IMG/VR virus record: IMGVR_UViG_2778261056_000004
Location: 1 to 42,285 of that record
Length of the DNA stretch: 42,285 nucleotides
From: a virus
Taxonomy: Duplodnaviria > Heunggongvirae > Uroviricota > Caudoviricetes
Reading direction: 5' to 3' (one strand)
Positions within the stretch are counted from its first letter, which is position 1. Every line of letters begins with the position of its first letter. The position numbers were made by a program, and so were the translations under genes. The notes under the pieces are model-generated. The model was given only the letters and a program-made list of their open reading frames with translations. It ran no database searches and had not been told where the DNA came from. Positions 15,255 to 29,244 of the stretch are shown here, one piece after another.

Positions 15255-17285
15255 TTACTTACCGGATGATTTCGCCAGACCGCGATAATCCAGCGGCGCC
15301 ACACCAGCATCGATGCGGACTTTCGTCGCAACACCATCAGTGGTGAAACCTTCCTGCTGGTCGATGTACGGGGCATCAATGCCATTGAGGTACGCCACTT
15401 CGATGGTATCGGTGCCCTGTGCGGCAGCCAGATACCAGGCCGCCGGATCGGCGTCATCCAGACGCGCTTCTGCGATCACTTCGGCAAAGTTCTGCAGCGG
15501 GTTAACCACGCCGGCATTGATATCAGCCCCTTTCACGCTTGCTGACTTAATGGTCTGGCTGGCTAATGTTTCCAGACCCACCGGAACCAGCATGTAGGCC
15601 GGACGAATGTTCAGGGCGCGCTCGCCCTCTTTCTGCTTGCGCATGTTCTGGCGGGCCTTATCCAGGCTGTCAACGCTGATGGCGCCAGCTGAAAGGTTGG
15701 CATGGTCAGCATGGAAGAGCGCCTTACCATCCGACAGTTTCCCGTTACCGGTCAGCACGGCATAGACCAGGTCACCGATTGTCGCTTTTGCAGCGCGCCC
15801 CATCTTCATCGGAACGTCTGTCAGCTGGTTCAGGTCATCGTTGATAATGGCCTGGCGGGTGATGGAGAAGATCTCACCGTAAGTAGCCAGCGCGATGGTT
15901 TCACCCTTATCCTGCGTGGTGATGTACTTATACTCCGCGCCCTCTCGCACCTGACGCAGGGAAGGGAAGCCGCCCATGCCGACGCGATGCGCCGTTTTGA
16001 AGTCAGACAGCTGGCCTTTTTTGGTCCAGAGTTCAAAGGTCTCTGCCGCTTCATCCCAGCCCTGCAACAGCGCTTTATTGGCGACATCGAGCAGGATATT
16101 GCCAAAATCGGAGGTGCTGTGCGTCAGCGCAAAACCAACCATCTGCATCGGGTTGTAACTGGAGACCCCGATGCCGCGCTCGGTCAGGGACATGCGGGCG
16201 TATTCGCGCAGCGTCATACCGTTATAGACGTTGTCGCGCTCAACATTTTCATAACCGGAACGCGCCATCAGCGCCTGGCGGATCCCGTCGCCAACAAAGT
16301 TACCGTTGCCGGCATACACATGGGCCTGACCCTGCGTAGTGGTGTTGGACGGCGTGGCATTTTTACCGAGCTCTGCCAGAAGAACATCTTTCGCCTGGCT
16401 GACCGAGCACTCTGGATCGGCAATACATTTAGCCTGCAGCTCCTGATGCTTTCCGCCGAACATGGCGAAGAGGTCCTGAATACCGTTCACGCGTGCCTTT
16501 TGCTCCGCAATAACCTGCGCACGGATATCTGTTTCGCTGGCACCTGCCGCCGGAGCTGGCTGGGTGGCAGTTGGCTGCTGTGTTTCGCGCGTAGCGGTAT
16601 TGCGCGGCGGGGTGACCATGTTGCGAATGCTGTTTGGCATCTTTTCAAATTCCTCAATACGTTTCGAATGGATGCAGGCCATTGCCTGCAAGGATGGTGT
16701 GACCTGGTCAGCGAAGCCCAGCTCCAGACATTCAGTGCCGGAGAGCCAGGTCTCTTCCTCCAGCATTGCCGCAATTTCTTCGGTGCTTTTTCCCGTCTTC
16801 TGCGCGTATGCCGGGATCAACACCGACTCCACTTTGTCGAGCAGGTCGGCGTAGTCGCGCATGTCATCAGCATCACCACCCGCAAAACCCCACGGCTTGT
16901 GGATCATCATCATGGTGTTTTCCGGCATGATGACCGGATTTCCTACCATGGCGATGACTGATGCCATTGAGGCAGCCAGACCGTCGATAAAAACGGTGAT
17001 CGCGGCGCCGTGGAATTTCAGGGCATTAAAAATGGCGATACCGTCAAAGACATCGCCACCAGGGGAGTTGATATGCAGTTTGATGTGAGTTACGTCGCCC
17101 AGCGCCTTAAGGTTTGCGACGAACTGCTTCGCCGTTACCCCCCAGTAGCCGATCTCGTCGTAGATGTAGATTTCGGCTTCGTTTTCCGAACTGGCCTGCA
17201 TACGGAACCAGCTATTTTTTGCCTGGGCTTTCGGGCGGTTCTTTACCCGGTTTTGCTTCCTGGACACGAGTGTCTCCTTTGTCAT
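15255..17285 (-). CDS. fused prohead protease (ClpP/S14-like)-scaffold-major capsid protein (HK97 fold); start ATG 17285, GTG 17270 or ATG 17201
   Basis: ClpP-like segment IYIYDEIG...HINSPGGDV...AASMASVIAMVG...MMIHKPW, then Pro/Thr/Gln linker and coiled-coil, then about 400 aa capsid-like region, all in one frame. Confidence 0.7.
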   Translation of the reverse strand: MTKETLVSRKQNRVKNRPKAQAKNSWFRMQASSENEAEIYIYDEIGYWGVTAKQFVANLKALGDVTHIKLHINSPGGDVFDGIAIFNALKFHGAAITVFIDGLAASMASVIAMVGNPVIMPENTMMMIHKPWGFAGGDADDMRDYADLLDKVESVLIPAYAQKTGKSTEEIAAMLEEETWLSGTECLELGFADQVTPSLQAMACIHSKRIEEFEKMPNSIRNMVTPPRNTATRETQQPTATQPAPAAGASETDIRAQVIAEQKARVNGIQDLFAMFGGKHQELQAKCIADPECSVSQAKDVLLAELGKNATPSNTTTQGQAHVYAGNGNFVGDGIRQALMARSGYENVERDNVYNGMTLREYARMSLTERGIGVSSYNPMQMVGFALTHSTSDFGNILLDVANKALLQGWDEAAETFELWTKKGQLSDFKTAHRVGMGGFPSLRQVREGAEYKYITTQDKGETIALATYGEIFSITRQAIINDDLNQLTDVPMKMGRAAKATIGDLVYAVLTGNGKLSDGKALFHADHANLSAGAISVDSLDKARQNMRKQKEGERALNIRPAYMLVPVGLETLASQTIKSASVKGADINAGVVNPLQNFAEVIAEARLDDADPAAWYLAAAQGTDTIEVAYLNGIDAPYIDQQEGFTTDGVATKVRIDAGVAPLDYRGLAKSSGK

Positions 17286-18714: not shown

Positions 18715-18959
18715 CGCGGGAACCTCGCCAGTTTAAAGGAGCCACCCCTGCCCGTTGCGGCAGCCACGGCAGCAGCCTCTTTTCGCTCCCACTCCTGGCG
18801 GCCCTTCCGGATTTCACTCAGGTTCTCCATGGTCATCTGCTGACCATTAAACGTGATGGACTTGCCCTGCAGGACCGCCATTTCCGCTTCGGTATAACGG
18901 CGGACCATGTCCTGAATATCATTGAGATTCACACCCAGCCTCCTGATGATGATGACCAT
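18711..18959 (-). CDS. head-tail joining protein W-like
   Basis: 82 aa; located between terminase large subunit and portal as lambda gpW; overlaps portal start. Confidence 0.5.
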   Translation of the reverse strand: MVIIIRRLGVNLNDIQDMVRRYTEAEMAVLQGKSITFNGQQMTMENLSEIRKGRQEWERKEAAAVAAATGRGGSFKLARFPR

Positions 18960-19870
18960 GCCGATTCACGGGCTGGCTTCGTAGCCTTTGGCTCTGATAC
19001 TGGCGGTTTTGCAACCGGCGGCGGTGCCACTGGAGGCGCGTCTGGCGATGGCTCAACCACCAGATAACTCTCCCGGCGCGCCCACTCAGGCGCATCAGGC
19101 CACTTAATTTTTTCGTAACCATGAAGAATGACCAGGGCATGCGCGTAAACCATAAGGTCAAATGCTTCGTTAGCCCCCTTACCAGGCTTCGTCCATTTCC
19201 CATCAGCTGATCGCTCCTCATAGGTCAGTTCGTCGTAAAACCACCCTCCCAGCCAGTCAGGGAAATGCACGTAGTTCGGCCCCGGCACATCGCGCCACAG
19301 CGCGTTATTGATCCGGTCTTTCAGTGCGTTGGTCTGGAGAAGGTAGAGAGGGACATCACCGGCCGCCTTCGCGCGCCGGGCAGAACGCCCGGTGTTATCC
19401 GGGTAGGTTTTGGTAATCAGCTTCGCCCGGGTCTGGCTGTCACCCTTGAAAAGCCAGACTTTGCGCTGCAGACCGTCACGGCGACAGCGCCGCCAGAACT
19501 CATAGGCATTGTCGGTAACGCCATCTTCACCACCGGAGTCGACGGCCATGGCCAGGAGGCTCATTCGCTTGCCCGGTTCGCCATCAAGCGCCCAGGTTTT
19601 CTCCAGCACATCGGTGCGCAGCAGATCCCAGTCCTCCGGGTAGCTGGCAGGATCGATGTGGTAGCTTTCACCATCTGGCGTGGTGCGCATCGACTGCATG
19701 ATGTTGTACCGGTCAACCACCCACCGCTCGCCGTGGGCGCCGTAGCCAACAACCTGCACCACAAATCGCCGGTTTTTACCGCCCTGAACATCGACGGTCG
19801 CCAGCAGGCACGCGCCGCCGTTCAACCGGTTCGGCGCGCTGCAGCAGTTCGTCACCTTTGCGTTGCTCAA
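18929..19870 (-). CDS. terminase large subunit, C-terminal (nuclease) fragment; frameshifted relative to the N-terminal fragment
   Basis: LLATVDVQGGKNRRFVVQVVGYGAHGERWVVDRYNI aligns with lambda gpA AYLTAGIDSQLDRYEMRVWGWGPGEESWLIDRQII; N-terminal 20 aa of the track ORF are out-of-frame read-through. Confidence 0.6.
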   Translation of the reverse strand: MSNAKVTNCCSAPNRLNGGACLLATVDVQGGKNRRFVVQVVGYGAHGERWVVDRYNIMQSMRTTPDGESYHIDPASYPEDWDLLRTDVLEKTWALDGEPGKRMSLLAMAVDSGGEDGVTDNAYEFWRRCRRDGLQRKVWLFKGDSQTRAKLITKTYPDNTGRSARRAKAAGDVPLYLLQTNALKDRINNALWRDVPGPNYVHFPDWLGGWFYDELTYEERSADGKWTKPGKGANEAFDLMVYAHALVILHGYEKIKWPDAPEWARRESYLVVEPSPDAPPVAPPPVAKPPVSEPKATKPARESAWSSSSGGWV

Positions 19871-21014
19871 TACTTGAGCGCGGGAGATACGGGAGTCCCC
19901 AGTCGGTGTTAATGACCGTCTTCAGCGTTTCTTCGCTGCCGGTCGCTTCGTACTCCTGTTCAGCGGTCAGCAGTTTGTAAACCAGTTGGGCCCAGGTCTG
20001 ATATGCAGCTGCCGGGCCTTCCATCCAGAACGATGCGATACGCGACCGCCGCCCGGCGCCCGTTATTGTTCCGCTGCTGTCGATCTGCTGATCCTCACGC
20101 AGCCAGACACCTTTCATATTCAAAGCGCGTTTCTGACCGGCGGTGATCACCCCGGAGCAGGAAGGGCAATGGATGCAGGCCGCTTCGCTGGCCTTTACCG
20201 GATCGCTGATTTCCCGGTAACCGGTCATCGCCGTCATCTCAGGCTGGAAAAACTCACCACAATGCGGACATGGCCAGTACCAGCGCCTGCGGTCGCCGCG
20301 GTTGTACAGTGACAGAATGCCGGTTGTTGGCGGGGCTTCATGCGCCGAGCTCCGGCGCCACTTCGTATCGCGGATGTCCCGGCCTGGGGAACTCTCCACC
20401 AGCGTCATGCCGGACGACATAAACGTGGTGGTACGCTTGGAGGCCAGGGAAAATGCATCACCTTCCCCGTCGATATCCTCCGGGAAGCGGTCATAATCGG
20501 TCAGGGCGACGCACTTGTAATCCGACGAGGACATGATATTGACCGACGGCCAGCCTATCTTGAGATAGTTACCCGCCCTGAATGTCCTGTCGTAAACGTT
20601 ATTATCGTTCCTGCGGGGACTCAGGCGGGTTGCCACTTCCGGACTGCAACGGAACGTGCGATCCAGTCGTTTCTTCGAGTGCTCGCGGGCCTTTTCCTCT
20701 GTCATCTGAATGATCAGCATGTCAGACGGGTCGCAGACCACGTTATAAACCACCCACCCATCAATCAGGCCAATCGTCTTCCCGGTTCGCGCCGGGCCGA
20801 CAAACACCACTGCGTCATACTCGCGCGACGCCAGGCAGTTCATTGGCTCGAGTACATACGGAGCCAGGTTCGGATCCCAGGGAACGGAGTTACCGGCACC
20901 CATTGGCACGCGCATAAATTTACTGACTGCATCGGCCACCAGCATGCGGCGTGGGGCACGAAGTATTCCAGGGACATCCTTTCGGATCCCCCGGGCAGAT
21001 GCCCGCTTCGCCAT
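19776..21014 (-). CDS. terminase large subunit, N-terminal (ATPase) fragment
   Basis: Walker A-like GPARTGKT; WPCPHCGEFF matches lambda gpA ACPHCGEE; last 15-20 aa are frameshift read-through ending at TAA 19776. Confidence 0.65.
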   Translation of the reverse strand: MAKRASARGIRKDVPGILRAPRRMLVADAVSKFMRVPMGAGNSVPWDPNLAPYVLEPMNCLASREYDAVVFVGPARTGKTIGLIDGWVVYNVVCDPSDMLIIQMTEEKAREHSKKRLDRTFRCSPEVATRLSPRRNDNNVYDRTFRAGNYLKIGWPSVNIMSSSDYKCVALTDYDRFPEDIDGEGDAFSLASKRTTTFMSSGMTLVESSPGRDIRDTKWRRSSAHEAPPTTGILSLYNRGDRRRWYWPCPHCGEFFQPEMTAMTGYREISDPVKASEAACIHCPSCSGVITAGQKRALNMKGVWLREDQQIDSSGTITGAGRRSRIASFWMEGPAAAYQTWAQLVYKLLTAEQEYEATGSEETLKTVINTDWGLPYLPRSSIEQRKGDELLQRAEPVERRRVPAGDRRCSGR

Positions 21015-21514
21015 CAGTCCTCCTCTGGCTCATCCTCCTCCGGTTCTGCGTCCAGCACGCGCTGCGCAATCTGGTCGCGAAGATCGTCAATCACACTCTG
21101 TACGCGGCTGACAGCTGCGGGGTTCAGCGCGCAGTCACGCTCCAGAATGTCCGGTAACGTTTCCAGCACCTGCACCACAGCTTTCGCCATGACAGAAAAT
21201 TCACGGGCCACCTCATCAGCCGGGATTAACTGGCCGGTGTCCTGCTCGAATTTGAGCCGCTCGTTTTCCGCTTTCCAGTGGGCGAGCCTGTCCGAAGGCG
21301 TCATATCGTCGGCGCTGGACGCGACGACGGGTGCCATCAGCTCGGTAAGCACATCGGTGATGAGATAGAGTTTGAGTTTGTTGTTGCTGCCCGGTGCAGG
21401 CTCGACTTGCTTAAGCCTGGCGGCAACGGTCTGGCGATGAACGCCGGTGATCCCTGCCAGCTGATTGATGTTCAGCTTCAGGGTGGAGAGCTCCTGGTCC
21501 ATGATGGTGAACAC
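21014..21514 (-). CDS. terminase small subunit (Nu1-like)
   Basis: N-terminal HTH LKLNINQLAGITGVHRQTVAARLK; acidic C-terminus; stop overlaps terminase large subunit start. Confidence 0.7.
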   Translation of the reverse strand: MFTIMDQELSTLKLNINQLAGITGVHRQTVAARLKQVEPAPGSNNKLKLYLITDVLTELMAPVVASSADDMTPSDRLAHWKAENERLKFEQDTGQLIPADEVAREFSVMAKAVVQVLETLPDILERDCALNPAAVSRVQSVIDDLRDQIAQRVLDAEPEEDEPEED

Positions 21515-21744: not shown

Positions 21745-22086
21745 TCAGAAGCCGAGGCGGACACGTCCCTCTGGTTCGTTGGCATTGGTCGTGATCCATG
21801 CAGTACCAGCCACAGCGTTATCATCCGTACCATCCTTAGCGTTGGCGCTCAGCTTGCCGTCTTTCGTCAGCCAGAGGCGAGCACCGCGCTGCCAGGTTTC
21901 GGCTGCAACCTTCGGCAGCACAAACACCCCGGTCATCATCAGCACACCATCACTGCCGGCGGGGATATCATGCTGAGCGATACCAGAAATCGCACCAACG
22001 ATCACCGGCTGGCCAGATGACACATCTTTTGTGGTCCCGTTGTGCCAGTCCATGGTATTGCCGTCCTGGTAGTAGTTTTTAGCCAT
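21745..22086 (-). CDS. DUF2190-like small protein, paralogue of the head-module gene 14851..15174
   Basis: MAKNYYQDGNTMD...SGQPVIVG...GVFVLPKVAAE parallels MKNFVQDGHTID...SGTPVAVG...GVVQLPKLAAD. Confidence 0.5.
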   Translation of the reverse strand: MAKNYYQDGNTMDWHNGTTKDVSSGQPVIVGAISGIAQHDIPAGSDGVLMMTGVFVLPKVAAETWQRGARLWLTKDGKLSANAKDGTDDNAVAGTAWITTNANEPEGRVRLGF

Positions 22087-22240
22087 ATTTAGCCTCTGGT
22101 TATGCCTGCAAGGCAGATCAAATGAATGAGTCTTACGTTAGGTGCGCTGGGTGCGCAGAGGGGATAATTGACATGAGCATGTGCCTTCACATGATGATGT
22201 TAATTAAAGGCCCCGCTGTAGCGAGGCCTGGTGATACATT

Positions 22241-22540
22241 CTACGGCTTTGTGGTGCTCACGATATACGAGTCCACCACGCCATCCTTGTTTACTTTGAC
22301 CACCAGCGATTTACCCTGCCCTACGCTGAATGCAGTTGCGTGAGCGTAGGTCCAGCCATAGATTTTATTCCCTTCGGAATCGGCGGTTATTGAGGTTGGC
22401 TTACCAAACTTCTGCAGAACAGTTTGCTCTGTCGTGACCCCTTTTTGGATTGAGGCGACATCTGCCTCCGAAAAATCTTTACCAACTGTCGCGCAACCTA
22501 CAAGGCCTAAAGCAATGATGCCTAGAATTGTCTTTCTCAT
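22241..22540 (-). CDS. lipoprotein, moron-like
   Basis: Signal peptide with lipobox LVGC (MRKTILGIIALGLVGCATV); RBS AAGGGA; terminator-like hairpin downstream. Confidence 0.55.
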   Translation of the reverse strand: MRKTILGIIALGLVGCATVGKDFSEADVASIQKGVTTEQTVLQKFGKPTSITADSEGNKIYGWTYAHATAFSVGQGKSLVVKVNKDGVVDSYIVSTTKP

Positions 22541-22769
22541 TGATATATCCCTTATTTCAAAAAGGACAATCCTACCACCGAGCTATCTGAAGCGCGAAAA
22601 TTACATGGCCTGCGATAAAACCTTTGTGATCAGTGCAGAGCGTAAAGTGTCTGTGGTTGCCGCACAGCAGCCGCGAACACGAGAAGTCTTTGGTGTGCGT
22701 GGCGGCATATCTACCCCAAAAACACAGGCGAATACACGTGTGCCAAGTTTTCATTAGCAACATAAATGT

Positions 22770-23264
22770 TTAATTAGGTTTAAATTTATACGCACCAGAA
22801 ATGAATGGCTTAGAAATAAATGGGATGAGCAATTCGGCTATCTTTTCTCGATGCACTTGCCCTTGCATGTATTCGCCATGCCTGTTGTAAAGCGCATGAA
22901 ATTGCTGCCCTATTTCGTTCGTGTCAAACGTAACCTCCATTAATGTTACATAGAGATAAATTTGATTCATCGCGTCTTGAAGTAGCAAGGCGGGCTGACG
23001 GCAGTTTGGGTCTGATGGTTCAAGAGTTTCTGGCATCATAATAAGCAAATTACGATAATTAATCAGGGCAGCCTTTAACGCTTTTTTTTCGTTGTGCTTC
23101 TCTTGCTGCTTCCACGTATGCAGGGCTCGAAAAGCTACGCAGGCAGCTACCAACGTAATAATCCCTGAAAACCATGTTCCCAACACGGACCATAGCGCCC
23201 AATCAGCAGCCTCTCTACTGGCGACAAGCGCCTCATACGCAATATAATTGGCGTCCATTACCAC
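22770..23264 (-). CDS. hypothetical single-pass membrane protein
   Basis: One hydrophobic helix WALWSVLGTWFSGIITLVAACVAF then a soluble domain; AT-rich island. Confidence 0.4.
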   Translation of the reverse strand: MVMDANYIAYEALVASREAADWALWSVLGTWFSGIITLVAACVAFRALHTWKQQEKHNEKKALKAALINYRNLLIMMPETLEPSDPNCRQPALLLQDAMNQIYLYVTLMEVTFDTNEIGQQFHALYNRHGEYMQGQVHREKIAELLIPFISKPFISGAYKFKPN

Positions 23265-23354
23265 CTCGCAATATTCATTGCGGTGATTGTAGCCAAAAAT
23301 ACAATCACAGGCACTCGATGAATACCTGCTCTACTGCCGCACCATGATGGCAAT

Positions 23355-23377
23355 AAAAAACCGCCCGGAGGCGGTTT
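23355..23377 (-). terminator. rho-independent terminator (minus-strand orientation)
   Basis: Minus strand AAACCGCCTCCGGGCGGTTTTTTATTG: stem AACCGCC/GGCGGTT plus T tract. Confidence 0.45.
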
Positions 23378-23465
23378 GAGATACATGAAAATATTTCATG
23401 TTGAATTAAGAATTTTCGCACCAATATCAGATTTGCCCAATCCTAGATAACCTCTGGAAAATCCT

Positions 23466-24017
23466 ATGATTCATACTGTTCATTTTTTATGCCCAGTTTC
23501 TCCAAGTACAGTGAGCTTGCTTCAAAACAATATTTTGTCAGCAATATCTCAAGGGGCAACCCGAATCAACCTGCACATTTCGAGTTCTGGCGGCGACGTA
23601 ACATCCGGCTTTACCGCTTATAATTTTATTAAAACCCTACCCATTCCCGTTCATTGCTTCAACATCAGCAATATCGATTCAATTGCTAATGCAATTTTTC
23701 TCGCCGGAACTAAGCGGTTTGCAAATCACGGAGCAAGATTTTTGTTGCATCCTTTCCAGTGGAACTTCGGGGGAATGCAAAGCGTCGATCACGAACGAAT
23801 GCGCGAATGGGTATCTAGCTTAGATCACGATCTTGACCGTCTCGTTTCTATCTTTAACGAGGAAACTGTTTCCGCTGGAGAACTCACTGACTGGCGTGAG
23901 TTGATCAGAACCTCTTCCATTTTGAACCCTGAAAGAGCTGCCACTCTCGGCCTTATTGAAGGTATTCAGGAGGCTAGCATCGTTGAACCCAATGCTACCT
24001 GGTGGATAAATTGTTGA
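23466..24017 (+). CDS. stand-alone ClpP/S14-like serine protease homologue
   Basis: INLHISSSGGDVTSGFTAYNFIK resembles ClpP and the prohead protease HINSPGGDVFDGIAIFNALK; candidate Ser (DSIANAIFLAG) and His (FLLHPF). Confidence 0.55.
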   Translation: MIHTVHFLCPVSPSTVSLLQNNILSAISQGATRINLHISSSGGDVTSGFTAYNFIKTLPIPVHCFNISNIDSIANAIFLAGTKRFANHGARFLLHPFQWNFGGMQSVDHERMREWVSSLDHDLDRLVSIFNEETVSAGELTDWRELIRTSSILNPERAATLGLIEGIQEASIVEPNATWWINC

Positions 24018-24150
24018 CATGAAGTAACCTCTTTGCCCGATTATTTTTAAGATTATAGTCGGGCTTAATCATTCCGATTGTCAAATCAATGTTTAATTAA
24101 GAATCTATTTCTTGCAATTGATATCCCACGCCTTGTGATGTGCCAAGATG

Positions 24151-24390
24151 TCATTTCACAGCGTTGTACCAGGCTTGCCAACGATATTTATCGAGGCGCA
24201 GCTGCTGAAGGCATTGCGCAGTTTCGATATCAGCCTGCAGATCATCATCGCTATTGGTGCCAGCGTTACTTCCCCTGCACGGCTCCTGCATCAAATCCGC
24301 TGATGGAGTTGGCAGCGTCGATTGCACGCTGGCGCAGCTGCACAGCAGCATCGTCAAACTGGCACACAGTACGATCCGGAGACTGAACAT
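24151..24390 (-). CDS. Rz1-like outer-membrane spanin (overlapped frame)
   Basis: ORF in alternate frame overlapping the 3' end of the Rz-like gene; hydrophobic N-terminus with Cys (MLLCSCAS), Pro-containing mature region. Confidence 0.4.
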   Translation of the reverse strand: MFSLRIVLCASLTMLLCSCASVQSTLPTPSADLMQEPCRGSNAGTNSDDDLQADIETAQCLQQLRLDKYRWQAWYNAVK

Positions 24391-24616
24391 ATTTCACCAC
24401 GTCGCGGGTAATGGTTCGGTAAATCACTTTGCCCTCGATGGTCGCTGCAGCGGCTTTTACTTCAACCGGCTGGATGACCTTCTCGGCGTTCTCTTTCTTC
24501 TTTGCTGCCAGCGCGTTGATATGGTCAGCGTGCGCGCTCCAGCCAGAACGCCAGGCGATTGCACCAGTGACAGAGATGGCGACCACCAGCGCCAGCAGAA
24601 CGTAACGCAGCCTCAT
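24266..24616 (-). CDS. Rz-like inner-membrane spanin
   Basis: N-terminal TM helix LLALVVAISVTGAIAW, then charged periplasmic region; start overlaps endolysin stop. Confidence 0.55.
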   Translation of the reverse strand: MRLRYVLLALVVAISVTGAIAWRSGWSAHADHINALAAKKKENAEKVIQPVEVKAAAATIEGKVIYRTITRDVVKYVQSPDRTVCQFDDAAVQLRQRAIDAANSISGFDAGAVQGK

Positions 24617-25227
24617 GACAGCGCCGCCTGCGCCCGGCTGTAACGCACCTTACGGTCAGCCAGCCCATTCTGCCCACCGTTGATGATCTGGGTGACACGC
24701 ACTATATCGCCGGAATACAGCAGGCAACCGCGTAATGCGAAGAACCAGGCAGCCGACCGGGCAGCGTGTAGCTCCTGCTCCAGCAACTCGGGCGTGCTCA
24801 CCAGATCCAGCTTCAGCGCTGCACCGCATTTGGTGTAGTTCTCACGCCCGGTGATCTGCAGCAGGCCACGGCCACGATATTTCCAGCCGTCGCCCTCGGC
24901 GATGTTGCCCATGCGGCTGCCGTATACCAGGTTGGCGATCTGCGGCTGGTGGGCGGTCTGCTTATTGTCGACACGGCCCAGCATCTCGCACTGGTACGGC
25001 GTCAGGCGCTTACCGAAAGTTTTCTTCAGGCCGTCTACCGAATAGTTGAAGTTCTCCACCAGCGAGGTAAAGCCTGCCGACTCGTGGCCCACCTGCGCGA
25101 TGAACATGGCCTGATCGTTAACTGCGGTGATGCCGAACTCTTTCATTGCTGCGTCGATATGCGGATACCAGCGCGCAGCTAATTCGGCGCTTACCACAGC
25201 CGCCTTCTGAAATTGTGCCTGATTCAT
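24613..25227 (-). CDS. endolysin, glycoside hydrolase family 19 (chitinase-like)
   Basis: FIAQVGHESAGF, YRGRGLLQITGRENY motifs; start MNQAQFQK at 25227 with RBS AAGGAA; track N-terminal extension overlaps the holin. Confidence 0.8.
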   Translation of the reverse strand: MNQAQFQKAAVVSAELAARWYPHIDAAMKEFGITAVNDQAMFIAQVGHESAGFTSLVENFNYSVDGLKKTFGKRLTPYQCEMLGRVDNKQTAHQPQIANLVYGSRMGNIAEGDGWKYRGRGLLQITGRENYTKCGAALKLDLVSTPELLEQELHAARSAAWFFALRGCLLYSGDIVRVTQIINGGQNGLADRKVRYSRAQAALS

Positions 25228-25235
25228 AGAGTTCC

Positions 25236-25571
25236 TTACTTGGTGTCGCCACCAAAGCGGACGTTGATAACTCGGTTTGCTACAGAACGGACCTGTTCGA
25301 CGCCGACAAAGCCCAGCGCCCCGCCGATTGCAATGGAGAGGGATTGAGGAAGGTTGACGTAATCCAGGGCGGATACAGCTGTTAACGTCATGGCGCCGCA
25401 CATCAGGCCTTCCAGCAACATCTTTCGCCAGCCACCGCCGACGTAGGCTATCCGCAATACCGCCATCGCTACGGAAAGCAGAACAGCGCCAATAGGCGTA
25501 TCACCGCGCCACCAGCCGTGGAGCAGATCAAGGAACTCCGTCCAGGAGTGCGGGTCATTGTTCATTTTCAT
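25236..25571 (-). CDS. holin, lambda S-like
   Basis: Dual-start MKM; AVLRIAYVGGGWRKMLLEGLMCGAM resembles lambda S [24 protein letters not shown]. Confidence 0.7.
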   Translation of the reverse strand: MKMNNDPHSWTEFLDLLHGWWRGDTPIGAVLLSVAMAVLRIAYVGGGWRKMLLEGLMCGAMTLTAVSALDYVNLPQSLSIAIGGALGFVGVEQVRSVANRVINVRFGGDTK

Positions 25572-25639: not shown

Positions 25640-26692
25640 TTATTCCCCTGCCAACGCCCGTATTTCCCCCAACGTCTGATTAAACCTTTCCTCTTCGAGT
25701 TCAACGCCAATAGCCTGGCGGCCAAGTTCCAGCGCGACTTTCACGGTCGAACCGGACCCCATAAAGAAATCAGCCACCACATCACCAGGCTTACTGCTGG
25801 CGTTGATGATCTGCCGCAACATGTCAGCGGGTTTTTCGCATGGGTGTTTACCTGGATAAAACTGAACGGGTTTATGTGTCCAGACGTCGGTATAAGGAAC
25901 GGATACGGAAACAGAGAAATGTCGCCGAAGTGATTTGTACTCTTCGAGCAGCTCTGAATACTTGCGATTCAACGAATGCCACATAGCCACCAGCTGGTGG
26001 TGTGGTGTTGCCAGTTCGCCGTTCTGGTTCTTTTCGTTGGCTACCTGCGTGAAAAGGGACTGAAGCTTCCGGTAGTCTGATTCATTCGGTAATTGCCACT
26101 GGCTACCGCTGAACCAGTGAGACACCATGTTCTTCTTTCCAGTCGCATCGGCTATTTGTTTTGAGGATATGCCAAGCGCTTCACGTGCATCCCGGAAATA
26201 AGAAATTAGGGGAGTCATTACATGCTGCTTCAGCTCGCTTCCCTTCTCAGCGTACCCATCGCTCTTTGGTTTATACGGCCCTTGGTAATGCTCAGCGAAA
26301 AGGATGCGCTCTGTTGCAGGGAAGTAAGAACGCAGGCTCTCTTTATTACAGCCATTCCAGCGGCCCGACGGTTTAGCCCAGATGATATGGTTCAGGACGT
26401 TGAACCGCTCACGCATCATGATCTCAATGTCTGCTGCCAGACGGTGACCGGAGAAAAGATAAAGACTGCCGGCAGGTTTAAGCACTCGCCAGAATTGTGC
26501 GAGGCACATATCAAGCCAGCGAAGATAATCCTCATCCCCTTTCCACTGATTGTCCCAGCCGTTGGGTTTCACTTTGAAGTACGGCGGATCCGTGACTATC
26601 AGGTCAATGGAGTTATCAGGGAGAGTGGCGATGTATTGCAGGCTATCAGCGTTGACTAACTCAACACTGTTTATATTTACAGTATTTTTCAT
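25640..26692 (-). CDS. DNA methyltransferase (N6-adenine/N4-cytosine, DPPY type), orphan
   Basis: Motif IV TDPPY near N-terminus and motif I FFMGSGST near C-terminus; no adjacent restriction enzyme gene. Confidence 0.8.
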   Translation of the reverse strand: MKNTVNINSVELVNADSLQYIATLPDNSIDLIVTDPPYFKVKPNGWDNQWKGDEDYLRWLDMCLAQFWRVLKPAGSLYLFSGHRLAADIEIMMRERFNVLNHIIWAKPSGRWNGCNKESLRSYFPATERILFAEHYQGPYKPKSDGYAEKGSELKQHVMTPLISYFRDAREALGISSKQIADATGKKNMVSHWFSGSQWQLPNESDYRKLQSLFTQVANEKNQNGELATPHHQLVAMWHSLNRKYSELLEEYKSLRRHFSVSVSVPYTDVWTHKPVQFYPGKHPCEKPADMLRQIINASSKPGDVVADFFMGSGSTVKVALELGRQAIGVELEEERFNQTLGEIRALAGE

Positions 26693-26886: not shown

Positions 26887-26901
26887 ATTTCGAATAGATA
26901 A

Positions 26902-27306
26902 TCAAGCAGCAGGTTCGGATGGATAAACCTGCTCATACATCTGCTGAAGGGTGTCAATAGCTTTGTTAGCCATTATCAATATAGCTTCCGCATCAGCCTT
27001 ACTTAAAGTTCTATCAAGCTCGTAATCTGCCCATTTACGTCGGGTATGCAAATGTCTCAGCATTGTTCCCATAGAAATGAGTTTCATTTTTTCAAACGGC
27101 TCATTTCCTTTTAACCATGCATCATTTGTAAGATAGTCGCGAACAGCTTGGTGTGACGACTTGTTTGGGCATTTCTCAAGCTTATCAAGCGTTTCATGAT
27201 AAACTCCATAATACGCTCGACCAATGGCGTTTCTGTAACCGATTTCATCGTTGTGAGAAATGCATTTACCAGCAAAAACAATAAAATCTTTCCCCGATAC
27301 GCTCAT
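26902..27306 (-). CDS. hypothetical protein, 134 aa (weak HEPN-like R-x6-H motif)
   Basis: AT-rich, translationally coupled (ATGA) to upstream ORF; IGRAYYGVYHE motif; no family recognised. Confidence 0.4.
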   Translation of the reverse strand: MSVSGKDFIVFAGKCISHNDEIGYRNAIGRAYYGVYHETLDKLEKCPNKSSHQAVRDYLTNDAWLKGNEPFEKMKLISMGTMLRHLHTRRKWADYELDRTLSKADAEAILIMANKAIDTLQQMYEQVYPSEPAA

Positions 27307-28082
27307 CAGTAAATCCCTCTTTTTTCATCGCTTTGAAACCAGGATGTAAAAGGGCTGTTCCGATAACTATCATCTGAGAGCAAAACCAACAGTTCCATGT
27401 TCATTTCAGCTAAAACCTGCGGATCAGCAGTTTGGGCTCTAACGATGAATGCATTGTCATCATCTCCACCAAGATAATAGCTAACACTTGAACAGTTAAT
27501 ACCGCGCTTGTTCGCAATCTCTTCAGCTTGATCGCAAAGGGCTTCTAGTTCTCGAGAAGAAAGACGGGTAGCGTTTTTGAAATCAACAATCTGTTCAGCC
27601 ATATAATTTCCCTGATTGATTATATCCTCTCGCTCTTGGCCATCATAAAGAGCAGCCATTTTGAGGGAGAACTTTTTAACCAACTTGTCGTTGCCGATAC
27701 AAAATGCAGCGTTTCTTGCTACAAGCCTCAGTTCATGTGAAGGGAAAAGCTCAACTATTCTAAACAACTCAACGCGATGCTCATAGTTATGAGCCGAACG
27801 AGAAAGATACGCCAAGTAGTTTTGTGCGATCGTTGGACTCCCAGAGCTCATCGCGTCTTTGAATAAACGTACTGCATCAGAGTGACGCCCGAGAGTTCCA
27901 TTAAGCCATGCATACGCATGTGCGCGCTCACTTATTGGAAGTTTAGCAATGTCGCGCTCAATTTCCGCAATAGTGTCTGTATCCGGGACTTCTCCCTTCT
28001 GGAAGTAATCGAGGATTGTTGCAAGCAGTTCTTGTTCTTTTGACTCAGGCTGTCCTGACATAATTTTCCCGAAGAAAACCAA
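27306..28082 (-). CDS. hypothetical alpha-helical protein, 258 aa (start may be the second ATG, MSGQPESK)
   Basis: AT-rich ORF downstream of the putative late promoter/terminator; no family recognised. Confidence 0.4.
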   Translation of the reverse strand: MVFFGKIMSGQPESKEQELLATILDYFQKGEVPDTDTIAEIERDIAKLPISERAHAYAWLNGTLGRHSDAVRLFKDAMSSGSPTIAQNYLAYLSRSAHNYEHRVELFRIVELFPSHELRLVARNAAFCIGNDKLVKKFSLKMAALYDGQEREDIINQGNYMAEQIVDFKNATRLSSRELEALCDQAEEIANKRGINCSSVSYYLGGDDDNAFIVRAQTADPQVLAEMNMELLVLLSDDSYRNSPFTSWFQSDEKRGIY

Positions 28083-28412
28083 ATTCTGTATGTTTTCAAT
28101 AGCTTCACTGGATAGATTTTTATATTGCTGTCATCAGTATTGAAGCTTTTACGGGATTGTACAGGACCATCAGCGTTCTACTTGTGCATAAGAATTTAAT
28201 AAACCTACAGACTTATCCACAGAAAAAAGAGTTATCAACAAAAAAAGTTATTCACAACTTAACTAATAGCAAAATATTGTTGATAAGCTGTGCGTAATTA
28301 TCATATCCATCAAACTTACGCACATTAGAGCCTTGTGTTGCCTATCCATCGTTTTTTCCTATCAAAACGAAACGACATGCTTTTCTGCGATTAAAAAAGT
28401 ATTCCGCAAAAT

Positions 28413-28440
28413 TAAAAAACCCGCTCACTGGCGGGTTTAT
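28413..28440 (-). terminator. rho-independent terminator, candidate tR' downstream of a putative late promoter
   Basis: Minus strand AAACCCGCCAGTGAGCGGGTTTTTTAATTTT, about 45 nt after a -35/-10-like pair TTGCAA-N17-GATATT. Confidence 0.45.
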
Positions 28441-28530
28441 ATACTGTTGGCAACATATCAAATTAGCTTCAAATATCGCTTATTTTGTTGCATTTTGCAA
28501 GCCTGATTGAAGACGTTAGTGAAATTTACT

Positions 28531-29223
28531 TCACATTTCTACCACTTTCACTTCTTCATACTCTTCGTACCGCGCCAGGCTTTCACGTAACGCCAGGCTG
28601 TCCATTTCCACGAAAGCTGCTTTAAATGCTGCCCAGTGAGCAGCGTATACCCTGAGCCAGGTTGAACGCTCCACGCTCACCATGCGGGCCAGTGCCGCCC
28701 CCGCATATTCCTGGTACGTATCGTTATTGCGTGATGCTGCAACTTCCTGGGCCGCGAGCCAGACAAGCCCCACTAATTTTTTTGTGACTCTGTCCTGGAG
28801 CTTCTTACGGCCCTGCTGATGCTGAAACTGTGCCCAAACGTACTGGCACATCAACGTCTGGTACCGGAAAGACAGATCATATCCATAGCAATACCTGACC
28901 CACGCCTGCAGATGCTCTCCAAGGCCATTTACCGAGCGGCGCCACGCAGAACTCGCAAACTCGGCATCCTTCATAGGGGGTAATGGGCGTCGACGGCTTC
29001 TTGTCTCCAGAACATAAAGCGGAGTGGCCAGAGTTTTTACAACCTTCGATCCACAACCTTCCCCACCCTCCATGACGATTTCAGGATGGTGCCGAGGGTA
29101 TTTATTCTTATCTGCTGGTGGATGCTCACTGAACGCCTGCAGCTGTCCTTTTGTCGATCCTGATAAATCCGCCAGCGCGCGGCGCAGTTCAATCCGCGTA
29201 TATTCCAGTTCTTGTAAATTCAT
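28531..29223 (-). CDS. putative late-gene antitermination protein (Q-like)
   Basis: Position immediately upstream of the promoter/terminator pair and late genes; Cys/His-containing 230 aa protein; first ATG at 29223 (track start is TTG). Confidence 0.4.
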   Translation of the reverse strand: MNLQELEYTRIELRRALADLSGSTKGQLQAFSEHPPADKNKYPRHHPEIVMEGGEGCGSKVVKTLATPLYVLETRSRRRPLPPMKDAEFASSAWRRSVNGLGEHLQAWVRYCYGYDLSFRYQTLMCQYVWAQFQHQQGRKKLQDRVTKKLVGLVWLAAQEVAASRNNDTYQEYAGAALARMVSVERSTWLRVYAAHWAAFKAAFVEMDSLALRESLARYEEYEEVKVVEM

Positions 29224-29244
29224 TATGCTCAGCGCTCCATACAA

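What the first reader, a model, noticed from the sequence alone, without database searches (positions are those of the whole stretch)
22241..24017. AT-rich island next to the lysis cassette: stand-alone ClpP-like protease on the opposite strand, plus a single-pass membrane protein and a lipoprotein
The 183-aa plus-strand ORF is a paralogue-like copy of the prohead protease core, with candidate catalytic Ser and His retained. It is transcribed convergently into the end of the lysis operon and is flanked by a palindromic element (CATGAAAATATTTCATG, 23384-23400) and a minus-strand terminator. Adjacent minus-strand genes encode a membrane protein and a lipoprotein, each with its own signals. This looks like independently expressed lysogenic-conversion or exclusion cargo, not morphogenesis.
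Basis: partly seen in the sequence, partly recalled or inferred. Interest (0 to 1): 0.6.

Follow-up and report, generated by a model that had tools for sequence, protein, structure and literature searches.

The report
Prophage cargo gene: a truncated ClpP
A lambda-like prophage carries, between its lysis and DNA-packaging genes, a swappable single-gene cassette for a shortened ClpP protease subunit; relatives of this gene ride on many enterobacterial prophages, always reading against the phage's lytic genes, which suggests that prophages adjust their host's protein-degradation machinery.

Summary
Window 22241-24100 is an AT-rich island (GC 0.42-0.49 against 0.56) between the spanin genes and the terminase genes of a lambdoid prophage. 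It contains a 183-aa ClpP-fold ORF on the opposite strand, a single-pass membrane protein and a lipoprotein.

The ORF is not a copy of the phage's own prohead protease (28% identity over 108 aa). It belongs to the short ClpP clade typified by Pseudomonas plecoglossicida ClpP1 (PDB 9UXT: E 4e-36; model TM 0.92). That clade lacks the N-terminal gate and the catalytic Asp, and keeps an invariant Ser72/His95.

The gene sits on an 811-bp cassette (23345-24155) found in about 25 other phage loci. In 57 distinct phage contexts it lies antisense to the lytic genes. In P22-like phages it forms an operon with mnt, in the region that holds sieA in P22. dN/dS is 0.02-0.07.

The membrane protein and the lipoprotein never co-occur with it, so they are separate cargo.

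Best reading: a gene expressed in the lysogen that supplies a second ClpP isoform, which probably co-assembles with host ClpP. This step is inferred from the 9UXT biochemistry. A role in exclusion or defence is possible but untested. This phage-borne use was not found in the searchable literature.

The parts
23345..24155 (+). Mobile single-gene cassette (moron) carrying the ClpP-like gene
   Evidence: This exact stretch recurs at 81-90% nucleotide identity in about 25 phage loci with different lysis and terminase modules. GC is 0.417 against 0.557 for the late genes. Sister phages L108-L112 carry other genes between the same flanks.
23466..24017 (+). 183-aa short ClpP (PpClpP1 type): Ser72 and His95 present, Ser150 in place of the triad Asp, N-terminal gating region absent
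   Evidence: Pfam PF00574 E 1e-12. PDB 9UXT E 4.3e-36 over residues 3-179. AF2 model pLDDT 92.4; TM 0.92 and rmsd 1.4 A to 9UXT_A. Alignments. dN/dS 0.02-0.065.
23358..23377 (-). Rho-independent terminator hairpin at the left edge of the cassette; a slot boundary shared with sister phages that lack the ClpP gene
   Evidence: Terminator scan. Fold -14.2 kcal/mol, z -3.6. 97-100% identical copy just downstream of late-strand cargo ORFs in L108 and L112. L042 and L043 have a non-homologous A-run plus GC hairpin at the same place (read by eye, not folded or scanned).
23383..23401 (.). Dyad ACATGAAA-N3-TTTCATGT directly upstream of and abutting the TTGAAT motif; candidate regulator-binding site
   Evidence: The arms are conserved while the centre varies (ATA, ACA, AAC, AAA) across cassette relatives. 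The pattern is unique in the window.
23401..23427 (+). Candidate promoter of heat-shock (sigma-32) type, TTGAAT-N14-CCAATAT, 39 nt before the ATG; a lead only
   Evidence: It is the only match to the pattern in 42 kb (0.09 expected) and lies at the same position in 11 related loci. The pattern was written after seeing the sequence. No sigma-70 promoter was found here.
24035..24064 (+). Hairpin 18 nt after the stop codon, probably the terminator or 3' stabiliser of the ClpP-like transcript
   Evidence: -16.9 kcal/mol for the 24018-24085 stretch that contains it, z -3.4. Stem conserved with a compensatory change, CCCGAC/GTCGGG to CCCAAC/GTTGGG, in L040. The T-run is weak.
24093..24155 (-). Relic of the 3' end of a different phage's o-spanin gene, carried in with the cassette
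   Evidence: The minus strand reads NDILAHHKAWDINCKK*. The o-spanin of L026 ends KDILTHNRSWQVNCKKKILN* at the homologous place.
22770..23258 (-). Single-pass membrane protein (162 aa from the ATG), all-helical, unknown function; separate cargo
   Evidence: phrog_6169 E 1e-24. AF2 pLDDT 74, helices only. No significant fold match in BFVD. In L106/L107 it lies between the lysis and terminase genes of another phage with no ClpP-like hit in the locus.
22241..22540 (-). Small lipoprotein (signal peptide plus lipobox; outer-membrane location not tested) with weak BamE/SmpA-OmlA-like similarity; part of the lineage's conserved lipoprotein-(cement)-terS block
   Evidence: Lipobox LVGC invariant. Pfam BamE hit in 7 of 10 relatives, best E 8e-5, below the cut-off. 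phrog_3135 E 5e-20. Block conserved up to 22716 in L108-L112.
24151..24616 (-). Spanin pair (Rz 24266-24616, Rz1 24151-24390), the end of the lysis cassette
   Evidence: ORFs. 75-96% identical homologues next to the endolysin in L040, L041, L108 and L111. Holin family PF05106 and a GH19 endolysin lie upstream.

Best explanation
The 183-aa ORF is the cargo of a self-contained 811-bp moron cassette (23345-24155). The cassette was dropped by recombination into a hypervariable slot between the spanin genes and the terminase-side block of a lambdoid prophage.

The ORF encodes a catalytically competent member of the short ClpP clade (PpClpP1 type). It has a ClpP fold, a Ser72-His95 dyad, no N-terminal axial gate, no triad Asp, and none of the two Tyr residues of the ATPase-docking pocket.

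Because it reads against all lytic transcription, and in P22-like relatives is the second gene of the mnt operon, it is most likely made in the lysogen rather than during virion assembly.

Mechanism, inferred from the one characterised relative: it forms heptameric rings that stack with a ring of the host's housekeeping ClpP. The mixed tetradecamer still docks ClpX or ClpA through the host ring but has altered peptidase output. The prophage would thereby retune host ClpP-dependent proteolysis.

Which phenotype is selected is not known. Candidates are prophage stability or induction, stress tolerance, and interference with other phages.

Shown here: fold, catalytic residues, cassette boundaries, mobility, strand bias, purifying selection. 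Inferred: expression in the lysogen, oligomer state, mixing with host ClpP.
For: Fold and family:
- Pfam CLP_protease above cut-off.
- PDB 9UXT E 4.3e-36 over the full length, with the next hit at 5.6e-5.
- AF2 pLDDT 92.4, TM 0.92 to 9UXT_A.
- Ser72 and His95 invariant in 41 sequences, third triad position variable.
- EcClpP Tyr60 and Tyr62 align with Asn35 and His37.

Biochemistry of the relative (PMC12900304):
- Homo-tetradecamer with low peptidase activity.
- Ser and His are essential; the Pro at the third position is dispensable.
- No ClpX binding.
- Forms a stable hetero-tetradecamer with canonical ClpP that has higher activity.
- No protein degradation on its own.

Cargo status:
- Cassette boundaries recur in about 25 loci.
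- Sister phages carry other genes in the slot.
- A relic of a foreign o-spanin 3' end lies at the right edge.
- Low GC.

Expression logic:
- In 57 dereplicated phage contexts, 88% of flanking ORF capacity is on the opposite strand.
- The gene sits in five kinds of slot.
- A Mnt-like gene abuts its start in about 45 loci and in 128 of 5426 complete E. coli genomes.
- The P22 map places mnt, orf59a and sieA in that region.

Selection: dN/dS 0.02-0.065.
Against: - No expression data, and no convincing sigma-70 promoter upstream.
- Hetero-oligomerisation was shown only for a 39-40% identical Pseudomonas protein with its own ClpP, not with an enterobacterial ClpP.
- The reported gain in ClpX-dependent degradation by the mixed complex was slight, so the physiological effect could be small or different.
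- The phage clade has Ser or Ala, not Pro, at the third triad position.
- The prophage in the window has a frameshifted terL, so nothing can be said about a role in the lytic cycle of this particular copy.
Confidence: 0.55

Rival explanations
1. It is a superinfection-exclusion or anti-phage defence effector. It would be expressed in the lysogen and directly cleave or trap proteins of incoming phages, for example capsid, scaffold or ejection proteins, alone or after activation by infection.
For: In P22-like phages it lies directly after mnt, between mnt and gene 16, in the region where P22 carries orf59a and sieA. The slots it uses are cargo hotspots that also hold defence-like genes: an nSTAND/AAA NTPase beside it in L015, and Panacea-domain genes nearby in an E. 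coli prophage and in Pantoea. It is distantly related to prohead proteases, which act on capsid proteins.
Against: There was no hit to any of 5027 PADLOC models. There is no conserved partner or sensor gene; the neighbours differ in every context. The characterised relative degrades neither casein nor GFP-ssrA by itself. A large sister clade is chromosomal in Pseudomonas and Azotobacter, outside phage or defence contexts.
Confidence: 0.2
2. It works alone as a homo-tetradecameric, ungated peptidase. It would clear peptides or unfolded polypeptides under stress and give the lysogen a stress-tolerance benefit, without touching host ClpP.
For: The relative forms stable homo-tetradecamers with an open 42.7 A pore and measurable peptidase activity. 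The Pseudomonas and Azotobacter homologues lie near small genes with KGG and CsbD domains; that these are stress proteins is my reading of the domain names. The cassette has a candidate heat-shock-type promoter motif conserved in 11 loci.
Against: The homo-oligomer has about 13-fold lower activity than canonical ClpP, and activity rises on mixing. The promoter motif was defined post hoc. It is unclear why phages would repeatedly carry a weak peptidase.
Confidence: 0.15
3. The ClpP-like gene, the membrane protein and the lipoprotein form one three-gene functional system.
For: They are adjacent within one AT-rich island.
Against: None of the fetched loci that carry the ClpP-like gene holds a homologue of either of the other two within 4-8 kb. 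The membrane protein occurs in L106/L107 with no ClpP-like hit in the locus. The lipoprotein is linked instead to the cement and terS genes in 5-9 related phages. The three segments have different homology boundaries (22716, 23345, 24155).
Confidence: 0.03
4. It is a duplicated or spare prohead (head-maturation) protease that takes part in capsid assembly.
For: It shares the ClpP fold and gives weak hits to head-maturation protease profiles (phrog_94 E 7e-20; NF045542 49 bits).
Against: It scores below the NF045542 cut-off of 120 and is 28% identical over 108 aa to the resident protease. It is on the opposite strand and outside the head module. It is present in phages with Mu F/portal_3 or S78 head modules, inside a tail module and in immI. 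It is absent from sister phages that have the same head genes.
Confidence: 0.02

Closest known systems
PpClpP1 of Pseudomonas plecoglossicida (PDB 9UXT; PLoS Pathog 2026, PMC12900304)
   Same: Same length (183 aa). Alignable end to end (E 4.3e-36; 39-40% identity; model TM 0.92, rmsd 1.4 A). Same missing N-terminal gating region. Same essential Ser and His, and no Asp at the third triad position. The Tyr pair of the ATPase-docking pocket is not conserved in either.
   Different: The window protein has Ser150 where PpClpP1 has Pro151. PpClpP1 and its Pseudomonas and Azotobacter relatives are chromosomal genes in non-phage neighbourhoods, whereas the enterobacterial clade sampled here was found only in phage contexts (prophages and one circular phage-like replicon). 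Oligomer state and mixing with an enterobacterial ClpP are untested.
Canonical ClpP (E. coli ClpP, MEROPS S14)
   Same: Same fold (TM about 0.8 to many solved ClpPs). Conserved GG oxyanion-loop motif, catalytic Ser and His, and a handle region.
   Different: It lacks about 45 N-terminal residues of the E. coli ClpP precursor (about 30 of the mature protein), and so lacks the axial loops. It has no Asp171 equivalent and no Tyr60/Tyr62. It scores far below the ClpP equivalog cut-offs (18-40 bits against 228-361). It is not next to clpX.
Phage morons such as lambda bor, HK97 gp15 and P22 sieA (extra genes expressed from the prophage). The description of bor and gp15 is from my own knowledge; sieA is from the P22 record.
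   Same: A single extra gene, present or absent between otherwise similar phages. Atypical base composition. Flanked by hairpins. Located at the lysis/terminase junction, the Q/holin junction, immI, near cI, or in a tail module. Oriented so that it can be expressed without the lytic programme.
   Different: The known morons of this kind encode membrane proteins or lipoproteins that act at the envelope. This one encodes a cytoplasmic self-compartmentalising protease subunit. No phenotype is known.
ClpP-related prohead protease / major capsid fusion (NF045540, NF045542), present in this same prophage at about 15255-17200 (-)
   Same: ClpP fold with Ser and His. Phage-encoded.
   Different: 28% identity over 108 aa. 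The resident protease is fused to the capsid protein, sits in the head module on the late strand, and scores 991 bits to NF045540. The island ORF scores 48-49 bits, below the cut-offs.

Membership tests
ClpP / peptidase S14 fold (Pfam PF00574) | Profile match above the curated cut-off, and a ClpP fold | tested here: met
   48.6 bits against a cut-off of 20.2. AF2 model pLDDT 92.4 with TM 0.78-0.92 to solved ClpPs.
ClpP / peptidase S14 fold (Pfam PF00574) | Catalytic Ser and His | tested here: met
   Ser72 and His95 align with E. coli ClpP Ser97 and His122 (mature numbering) and are invariant in 41 relatives.
Canonical ATP-dependent ClpP (housekeeping type) | Third triad residue Asp171 | tested here: not met
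   Ser150 in the window protein; Ser, Ala or Pro in relatives.
Canonical ATP-dependent ClpP (housekeeping type) | N-terminal axial loop and gating region | tested here: not met
   The protein begins at the position of E. coli ClpP residue 42 or 43 of the precursor. No family member has the region.
Canonical ATP-dependent ClpP (housekeeping type) | Hydrophobic docking pocket for the IGF/IGL loops of ClpX/ClpA (Tyr60, Tyr62; the role of these residues is from established ClpP structural work) | tested here: not met
   The aligned residues are Asn35 and His37. The relative PpClpP1 does not pull down ClpX.
Canonical ATP-dependent ClpP (housekeeping type) | NCBIfam ClpP equivalog scores | tested here: not met
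   18-40 bits against cut-offs of 228-361.
Short ClpP, PpClpP1 type (9UXT) | Full-length sequence and structure similarity, with the same truncated length | tested here: met
   E 4.3e-36 over residues 3-179 of 183. TM 0.92, rmsd 1.4 A over 180 columns.
Short ClpP, PpClpP1 type (9UXT) | Ser-His-Pro arrangement | tested here: inconclusive
   Ser and His are present, and Pro is replaced by Ser150. The paper shows that the Pro is dispensable: the P151A and P151D mutants keep about 60% of wild-type activity. The position may therefore not define the family.
Short ClpP, PpClpP1 type (9UXT) | Homo-tetradecamer, and hetero-tetradecamer with housekeeping ClpP | not testable with these tools
   Only monomer prediction is available. 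This is inferred from PMC12900304.
ClpP-related head-maturation protease (NF045542) | Profile score above the cut-off, and a position in the head module beside portal and capsid genes on the late strand | tested here: not met
   49 bits against a cut-off of 120. Opposite strand, between the spanin and terminase genes. Present in phages with other head modules.
   No S49, SDH or NfeD family appears among the Pfam or NCBIfam hits of the ORF.
Moron (extra gene unit in a phage genome, in the sense of Hendrix and colleagues; definition from my own knowledge) | Present in some, and absent from otherwise closely related, phages at the same place | tested here: met
   L108-L112 share both flanks (89-94% identity) but carry other genes in between. 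The cassette recurs in unrelated phage backgrounds.
Moron (extra gene unit in a phage genome, in the sense of Hendrix and colleagues; definition from my own knowledge) | Atypical nucleotide composition | tested here: met
   GC 0.417 against 0.557.
Moron (extra gene unit in a phage genome, in the sense of Hendrix and colleagues; definition from my own knowledge) | Own promoter and terminator | tested here: inconclusive
   The downstream hairpin is conserved with a compensatory change. The upstream 120 nt are conserved, with a dyad and a TTGAA motif. The sigma-70 scan found no promoter, and there is only a post hoc sigma-32-like match.
Moron (extra gene unit in a phage genome, in the sense of Hendrix and colleagues; definition from my own knowledge) | Expressed from the repressed prophage | not testable with these tools
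   Inferred from antisense orientation in 57 contexts and from the mnt operon in the P22-like clade.
Known anti-phage defence systems (PADLOC-DB v2) | Match to any defence-protein model | tested here: not met
   No hit at E <= 0.1 for any of the three island proteins.
BamE / SmpA-OmlA domain (for the 99-aa lipoprotein) | Pfam PF04355 above the cut-off | tested here: inconclusive
   15 bits against a cut-off of 23.2 for the window protein. Seven of 10 relatives hit, best E 8e-5. A profile against PDB gave nothing.

The most novel reading that the evidence does not exclude
Temperate phages of Enterobacterales carry a dedicated accessory ClpP ring that hybridises with the host's only ClpP. This reprograms ClpXP/ClpAP in the lysogen. 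It would be a single-gene, proteostasis-based form of lysogenic conversion whose selected effect is either exclusion of competing phages (for example by changing turnover of replication or ejection proteins) or control of the prophage's own induction switch. The published 'ClpP1' of pseudomonads would then be the chromosomal cousin of a widespread phage tool.
Probability: 0.25. Interest if true: 0.75.

Novelty: new variant of a known kind. Interest (0 to 1): 0.5.

Why it matters
Enterobacteria have a single ClpP, and it controls the turnover of regulators and phage proteins. From my own knowledge these include RpoS, LexA fragments, lambda O and the Mu repressor.

A second, gate-less ClpP isoform delivered by prophages would be a new way for a phage to alter its host. 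The prophage would change the composition of a central protease instead of adding an envelope protein or a nuclease. The mnt-linked variant is in 128 of 5426 complete E. coli genomes, and other variants are in Enterobacter, Klebsiella, Leclercia, Rahnella, Pectobacterium, Proteus and Pantoea.

The hypothesis is directly testable, because a solved structure and assays exist for a 39-40% identical relative.

It also adds context to the 2026 PpClpP1 work. That protein family has a large phage-borne branch which the paper does not mention.

The locus also shows how cargo is exchanged at the lysis/terminase junction: between the end of the spanin genes and a shared terminator hairpin.

Tried and rejected
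- Megablast of the island against 50,697 phage records and 5,426 E. coli genomes gave no match. The island is not a known sequence at the DNA level.
- PADLOC gave no hit for any of the three proteins.
- The genome-contig scan with the single protein returned only one locus, in Rahnella rivi. The wider picture came from the protein database, the contig look-ups and IMG/VR instead.
- The sigma-70 promoter scan found nothing on the + strand upstream of the ClpP-like gene and nothing on the - strand for the other two genes.
- Rfam found nothing in the island except a sub-threshold STnc130 hit that is just the terminator hairpin.
- The 5' UTR fold is not better than shuffled sequence (z -0.5), so I make no claim of a structured leader.
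- The palindrome is not unusual by count: 16 similar inverted repeats occur in 2.4 kb. Only its conservation counts.
- Fold search of the membrane protein against BFVD gave no hit at E <= 0.001. The best was an uncharacterised HP1 protein, E 0.09, TM 0.43. The AFDB50 library was unavailable.
- A lipoprotein profile against PDB gave only chance-level hits.
- Five literature searches for phage-borne or prophage ClpP cargo found nothing relevant.
- I considered and rejected a recent duplication of the prohead protease, a three-gene system, and a decaying pseudogene (dN/dS 0.02-0.065).
- I did not use the representative-protein search. It gives no context or names and would not have changed the conclusions.
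Full report
**Setting.** The window is a lambdoid prophage with its late operon on the minus strand. In order it carries:
- Q antiterminator, 28531-29244;
- a DNA methylase, 25640-26692;
- an S-family holin, 25236-25571;
- a GH19 endolysin, 24613-25227;
- the spanins Rz (24266-24616) and Rz1 (24151-24390);
- the island;
- a Phage_cement_2 gene, 21745-22086;
- terS (DUF1441), 21014-21514;
- gpA-type terL, then portal;
- a ClpP-type prohead protease/major capsid fusion, about 15255-17200;
- the tail genes.

The head genes are about 75% identical at DNA level to E. coli phages of the mEp043/mEp213 type. The closest copies of the island's ClpP-like protein are from Enterobacter and Leclercia, so the host is probably in that group. 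That is an inference.

**Observation.**
- Composition: GC falls to 0.43-0.45 between 22501 and 24000, against 0.55-0.61 in the late genes.
- ORFs: the three ORFs are as described.
- Protease ORF: the 183-aa plus-strand ORF matches Pfam CLP_protease above its cut-off.
- Orientation: it is convergent with Rz1.
- Dyad: the palindrome is a dyad of 8-nt arms with a 3-nt centre at 23383-23401.
- Terminator: the minus-strand terminator at 23377-23358 is a strong hairpin followed by a T-run.
- Membrane protein: it most likely starts at the ATG at 23258, behind GAGGTG, like most of its homologues.
- Lipoprotein: it has an invariant LVG|C lipobox.
- Promoters: no sigma-70-type promoter was detected for any of the three genes.

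**What the ClpP-like protein is.**
- Closest solved relative: against all PDB sequences the top hit is 9UXT chain A, a 183-aa 'Clp protease', E 4.3e-36 over residues 3-179. The next hit is six orders of magnitude weaker by bit score (127.9 against 26.5 bits).
- What 9UXT is: 9UXT is ClpP1 of Pseudomonas plecoglossicida (PMC12900304). It is a divergent ClpP paralogue:
  - It lacks the N-terminal region and has Ser73-His96-Pro151 in place of Ser-His-Asp.
  - It forms a homo-tetradecamer with a 42.7 A pore and has about 13-fold lower peptidase activity than the housekeeping paralogue.
  - It does not bind ClpX and degrades neither GFP-ssrA nor casein alone.
  - It forms a stable hetero-tetradecamer with the housekeeping ClpP. 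That complex is more active and still works with ClpX.
- Model: an AlphaFold model of the window protein, built from 41 sequences, has pLDDT 92.4 and pTM 0.88. It superposes on 9UXT_A with TM 0.92 and rmsd 1.4 A, and on canonical ClpPs with TM about 0.8.
- Catalytic residues: Ser72 and His95 are invariant across 41 family members.
- Third triad position: it is Ser150 here and Ser, Ala or Pro elsewhere. This fits the paper's finding that this position is dispensable.
- Missing N-terminus: about 45 N-terminal residues of the E. coli ClpP precursor have no counterpart.
- Docking pocket: Tyr60 and Tyr62 of E. coli ClpP are part of the pocket that receives the IGF/IGL loops of ClpX and ClpA (established ClpP structural knowledge). 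They align with Asn35 and His37.

**It is not a copy of the prohead protease.**
- Identity to the window's own ClpP-type prohead protease is 28% over 108 residues.
- The head-maturation-protease model gives 49 bits against a cut-off of 120. The resident protease/capsid fusion gives 991 bits to its own model.
- The same gene occurs in phages whose head modules carry Mu F/portal_3 or S78 genes, inside a myovirus tail module, in immI and near cI.

**It is a mobile single-gene cassette.**
- Shared stretch: BLASTN of the island against all fetched loci shows one stretch, window 23345-24155. It recurs at 81-90% identity in about 25 loci whose lysis and terminase genes differ. More distant relatives share only the ORF plus 18-85 nt upstream.
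- Left edge: the terminator hairpin.
  - A 97-100% identical copy of this hairpin lies just downstream of unrelated late-strand cargo ORFs in sister phages L108 and L112, which lack the ClpP-like gene.
  - L042 and L043 have a non-homologous A-run plus GC-rich hairpin at the same spot (read by eye, not folded).
- Right edge: a fossil. The minus strand of 24093-24155 reads NDILAHHKAWDINCKK*, which is the C-terminal end of a different o-spanin family. The L026 o-spanin ends KDILTHNRSWQVNCKKKILN* at the homologous position. This abuts the stop codon of the window's own Rz1. The cassette therefore came in by recombination between the end of the spanin genes and the shared terminator.
- Sister phages: L108-L112 are 89-94% identical on both flanks. 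In the slot they carry a 285-aa protein, a trypsin-like 246-aa protein, a 169-aa protein or several small ORFs. The slot is a cargo hotspot.

**The three island genes are unlinked.**
- tblastn with the membrane protein and the lipoprotein found neither in any of the loci that carry a ClpP-like gene.
- The membrane protein recurs at 74% identity in L106/L107, between the lysis and terminase genes of another phage, with no ClpP-like hit in the locus.
- The lipoprotein is part of a block with the cement gene and terS. The block is conserved up to window 22716 in L108-L112, and the lipoprotein sits upstream of terS in several further relatives.
- The island is therefore three juxtaposed pieces with boundaries near 22716, 23345 and 24155.

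**Signals on the cassette.**
- Upstream region: the 120 nt upstream are conserved.
  - The dyad arms ATGAAA/TTTCAT are kept while the centre varies. That is the pattern expected of a protein-binding site.
  - A TTGAA motif follows directly.
  - TAACCTCTGG before the start codon is nearly invariant.
- Promoter: I could not assign a sigma-70 promoter. A pattern written after seeing the sequence, TTGAAW-N13-15-CCMATNT, resembles the sigma-32 consensus as I recall it. It matches once in the window, where 0.09 matches are expected, and at the same position in 11 loci. I treat this as a lead only.
- Downstream hairpin: the hairpin at 24035-24064 is conserved with a compensatory change in L040, but its T-run is weak.

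**Context survey.**
- Strand: 99 phage-context loci collapse to 57 distinct flank clusters. In these, 88% of the flanking ORF capacity (ORFs of at least 100 aa within 4 kb, crude calls) is on the strand opposite the ClpP-like gene.
- Slots used:
  - spanin/terminase junction (window; Rahnella; Leclercia/Enterobacter type);
  - Q/holin junction (Klebsiella michiganensis; L015);
  - immI (Pectobacterium; E. coli);
  - beside cI (Proteus);
  - between a 765-aa ORF (presumably the tape measure) and the baseplate genes (Pantoea).

- mnt linkage: in the immI clade a Mnt-like gene ends at the ClpP-like start codon in about 45 loci. The Mnt alleles range from 37% to 100% identity while the ClpP-like gene stays nearly constant.
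- P22 comparison: the P22 record shows mnt, orf59a and sieA in this region, on the strand opposite the late genes.
- Prevalence in E. coli: this variant is in 128 of 5426 complete E. coli genomes, always chromosomal. It is annotated only as 'ATP-dependent Clp protease proteolytic subunit' next to an 'Arc family DNA-binding protein'.
- Non-phage relatives: the 39-41% identical Pseudomonas and Azotobacter branch, to which PpClpP1 belongs, sits in ordinary chromosomal neighbourhoods.

**Selection.** Pairwise Nei-Gojobori estimates against ten relatives give dN/dS of 0.02-0.065. For three further relatives dS was saturated and no ratio could be computed. The gene is maintained as a working protein.

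**Mechanism.**
- Shown: a ClpP-fold protein with an intact Ser-His pair, under strong purifying selection, carried as an independent cassette antisense to lytic transcription.
- Inferred:
  - It is made in the lysogen. In the P22-like clade this follows from the operon with mnt, a lysogeny-maintenance repressor.
  - It forms heptameric rings.
  - Because it has neither a gate nor a docking pocket, it gains access to substrates by pairing with a ring of host ClpP, as PpClpP1 does with its partner.
- Unknown: the phenotype. Exclusion of other phages is plausible from position but has no direct support. PADLOC is silent, there is no conserved partner, and the characterised relative does not degrade proteins by itself.

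**The other two genes.**
- The membrane protein (phrog_6169) is predicted as one long helix that includes the transmembrane segment, followed by a three-helix bundle (pLDDT 74). It has no significant structural match in BFVD.
- The lipoprotein (phrog_3135) gives sub-threshold BamE/SmpA-OmlA hits in 7 of 10 relatives. Its distant homologues in Pseudomonas phages are annotated the same way.
- Both lie on the late strand with no detectable promoter. They may simply be read as part of the late operon once Q-modified polymerase passes the terminator. That is an inference.

**Novelty.** The protein family and the kind of element are both known. A short ClpP as prophage cargo was not found in five literature searches, and the 2026 paper on PpClpP1 does not mention phages. 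I rate it a new variant of a known kind, of moderate interest.

Noticed in passing
window 18929-21014 (deletion between 19803 and 19804): The large terminase gene is split into two overlapping ORFs (412 aa and 313 aa). The cause is a 17-bp deletion relative to sister phage L108, in a 250-bp stretch that is otherwise 100% identical. Relatives have one ORF of about 650-700 aa. The prophage is probably packaging-defective, unless this is an assembly error.
   Followed up: yes
window 2228-2453 (-) and ORF 636-2123 (-): There is a group II intron. The Rfam group-II-D1D4-6 hit scores 186.6 bits (E 7.5e-55), and it lies next to a 495-aa reverse-transcriptase ORF (RVT_1 E 5e-47), at the tail-fibre end of the prophage.
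   Followed up: partly
window 21745-22086 (-): A Phage_cement_2 (head decoration-type) gene lies upstream of terS, outside the head module. It is conserved there in sister phages L108-L112.
   Followed up: partly
window 22601-22708 (-): A short stretch matches the 5' end of HNH endonuclease genes that sit before terS in other phages (L017 4609-4668, also L033, L059 and L102). A 35-codon ORF here begins MPPR... This looks like a remnant of an HNH gene.
   Followed up: partly
L111 3024-3764; L009 3848-4663; L120 3951-4415: Other stand-alone proteases occupy the same cargo slot in related phages. L111 has a trypsin-like 246-aa protein with a GNSGGP motif. A Klebsiella phage has a Trypsin_2 271-aa gene. 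The Enterobacter phage-like replicon NZ_CP091500 has a retropepsin-like aspartic protease about 590 nt upstream of its ClpP-like gene, on the same strand. Proteases of three unrelated folds therefore recur as cargo at the lysis/terminase junction.
   Followed up: no
L002, L003, L013, L052-L096 (gene just upstream of the ClpP-like start): In the mnt-linked clade the Mnt-like alleles range from 37% to 100% identity to one another, while the ClpP-like gene downstream stays nearly identical. The repressor is exchanged independently of the protease gene even though the two abut with no gap.
   Followed up: partly
window 26900-28500: This is a second, more AT-rich island (GC 0.35-0.45), between Q and the methylase/holin genes. 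It holds two minus-strand ORFs (26902-27306 and 27306-28082) with no Pfam match.
   Followed up: no
window protein residues 179-183 (ORF 23466-24017): The C-terminus WW(I/V)(N/T)C is conserved through most of the phage-borne clade and is predicted as a terminal beta-strand. Canonical ClpP has nothing equivalent.
   Followed up: no
L121 5590-6457; L025 11301-11873; L015 6722-8113: Defence- or toxin-antitoxin-like genes sit near the ClpP-like gene in some hosts. An E. coli APEC prophage has a Panacea-domain gene plus a partner directly downstream. Pantoea has a SocA_Panacea gene about 4 kb away. L015 has an nSTAND/AAA NTPase adjacent.
   Followed up: no
window 22165-22206: A 19-nt imperfect inverted repeat (84% complementary) lies between the lipoprotein stop codon and the cement-gene start codon. 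It overlaps a plus-strand TTGACA-16-CATGAT promoter-like site.
   Followed up: no
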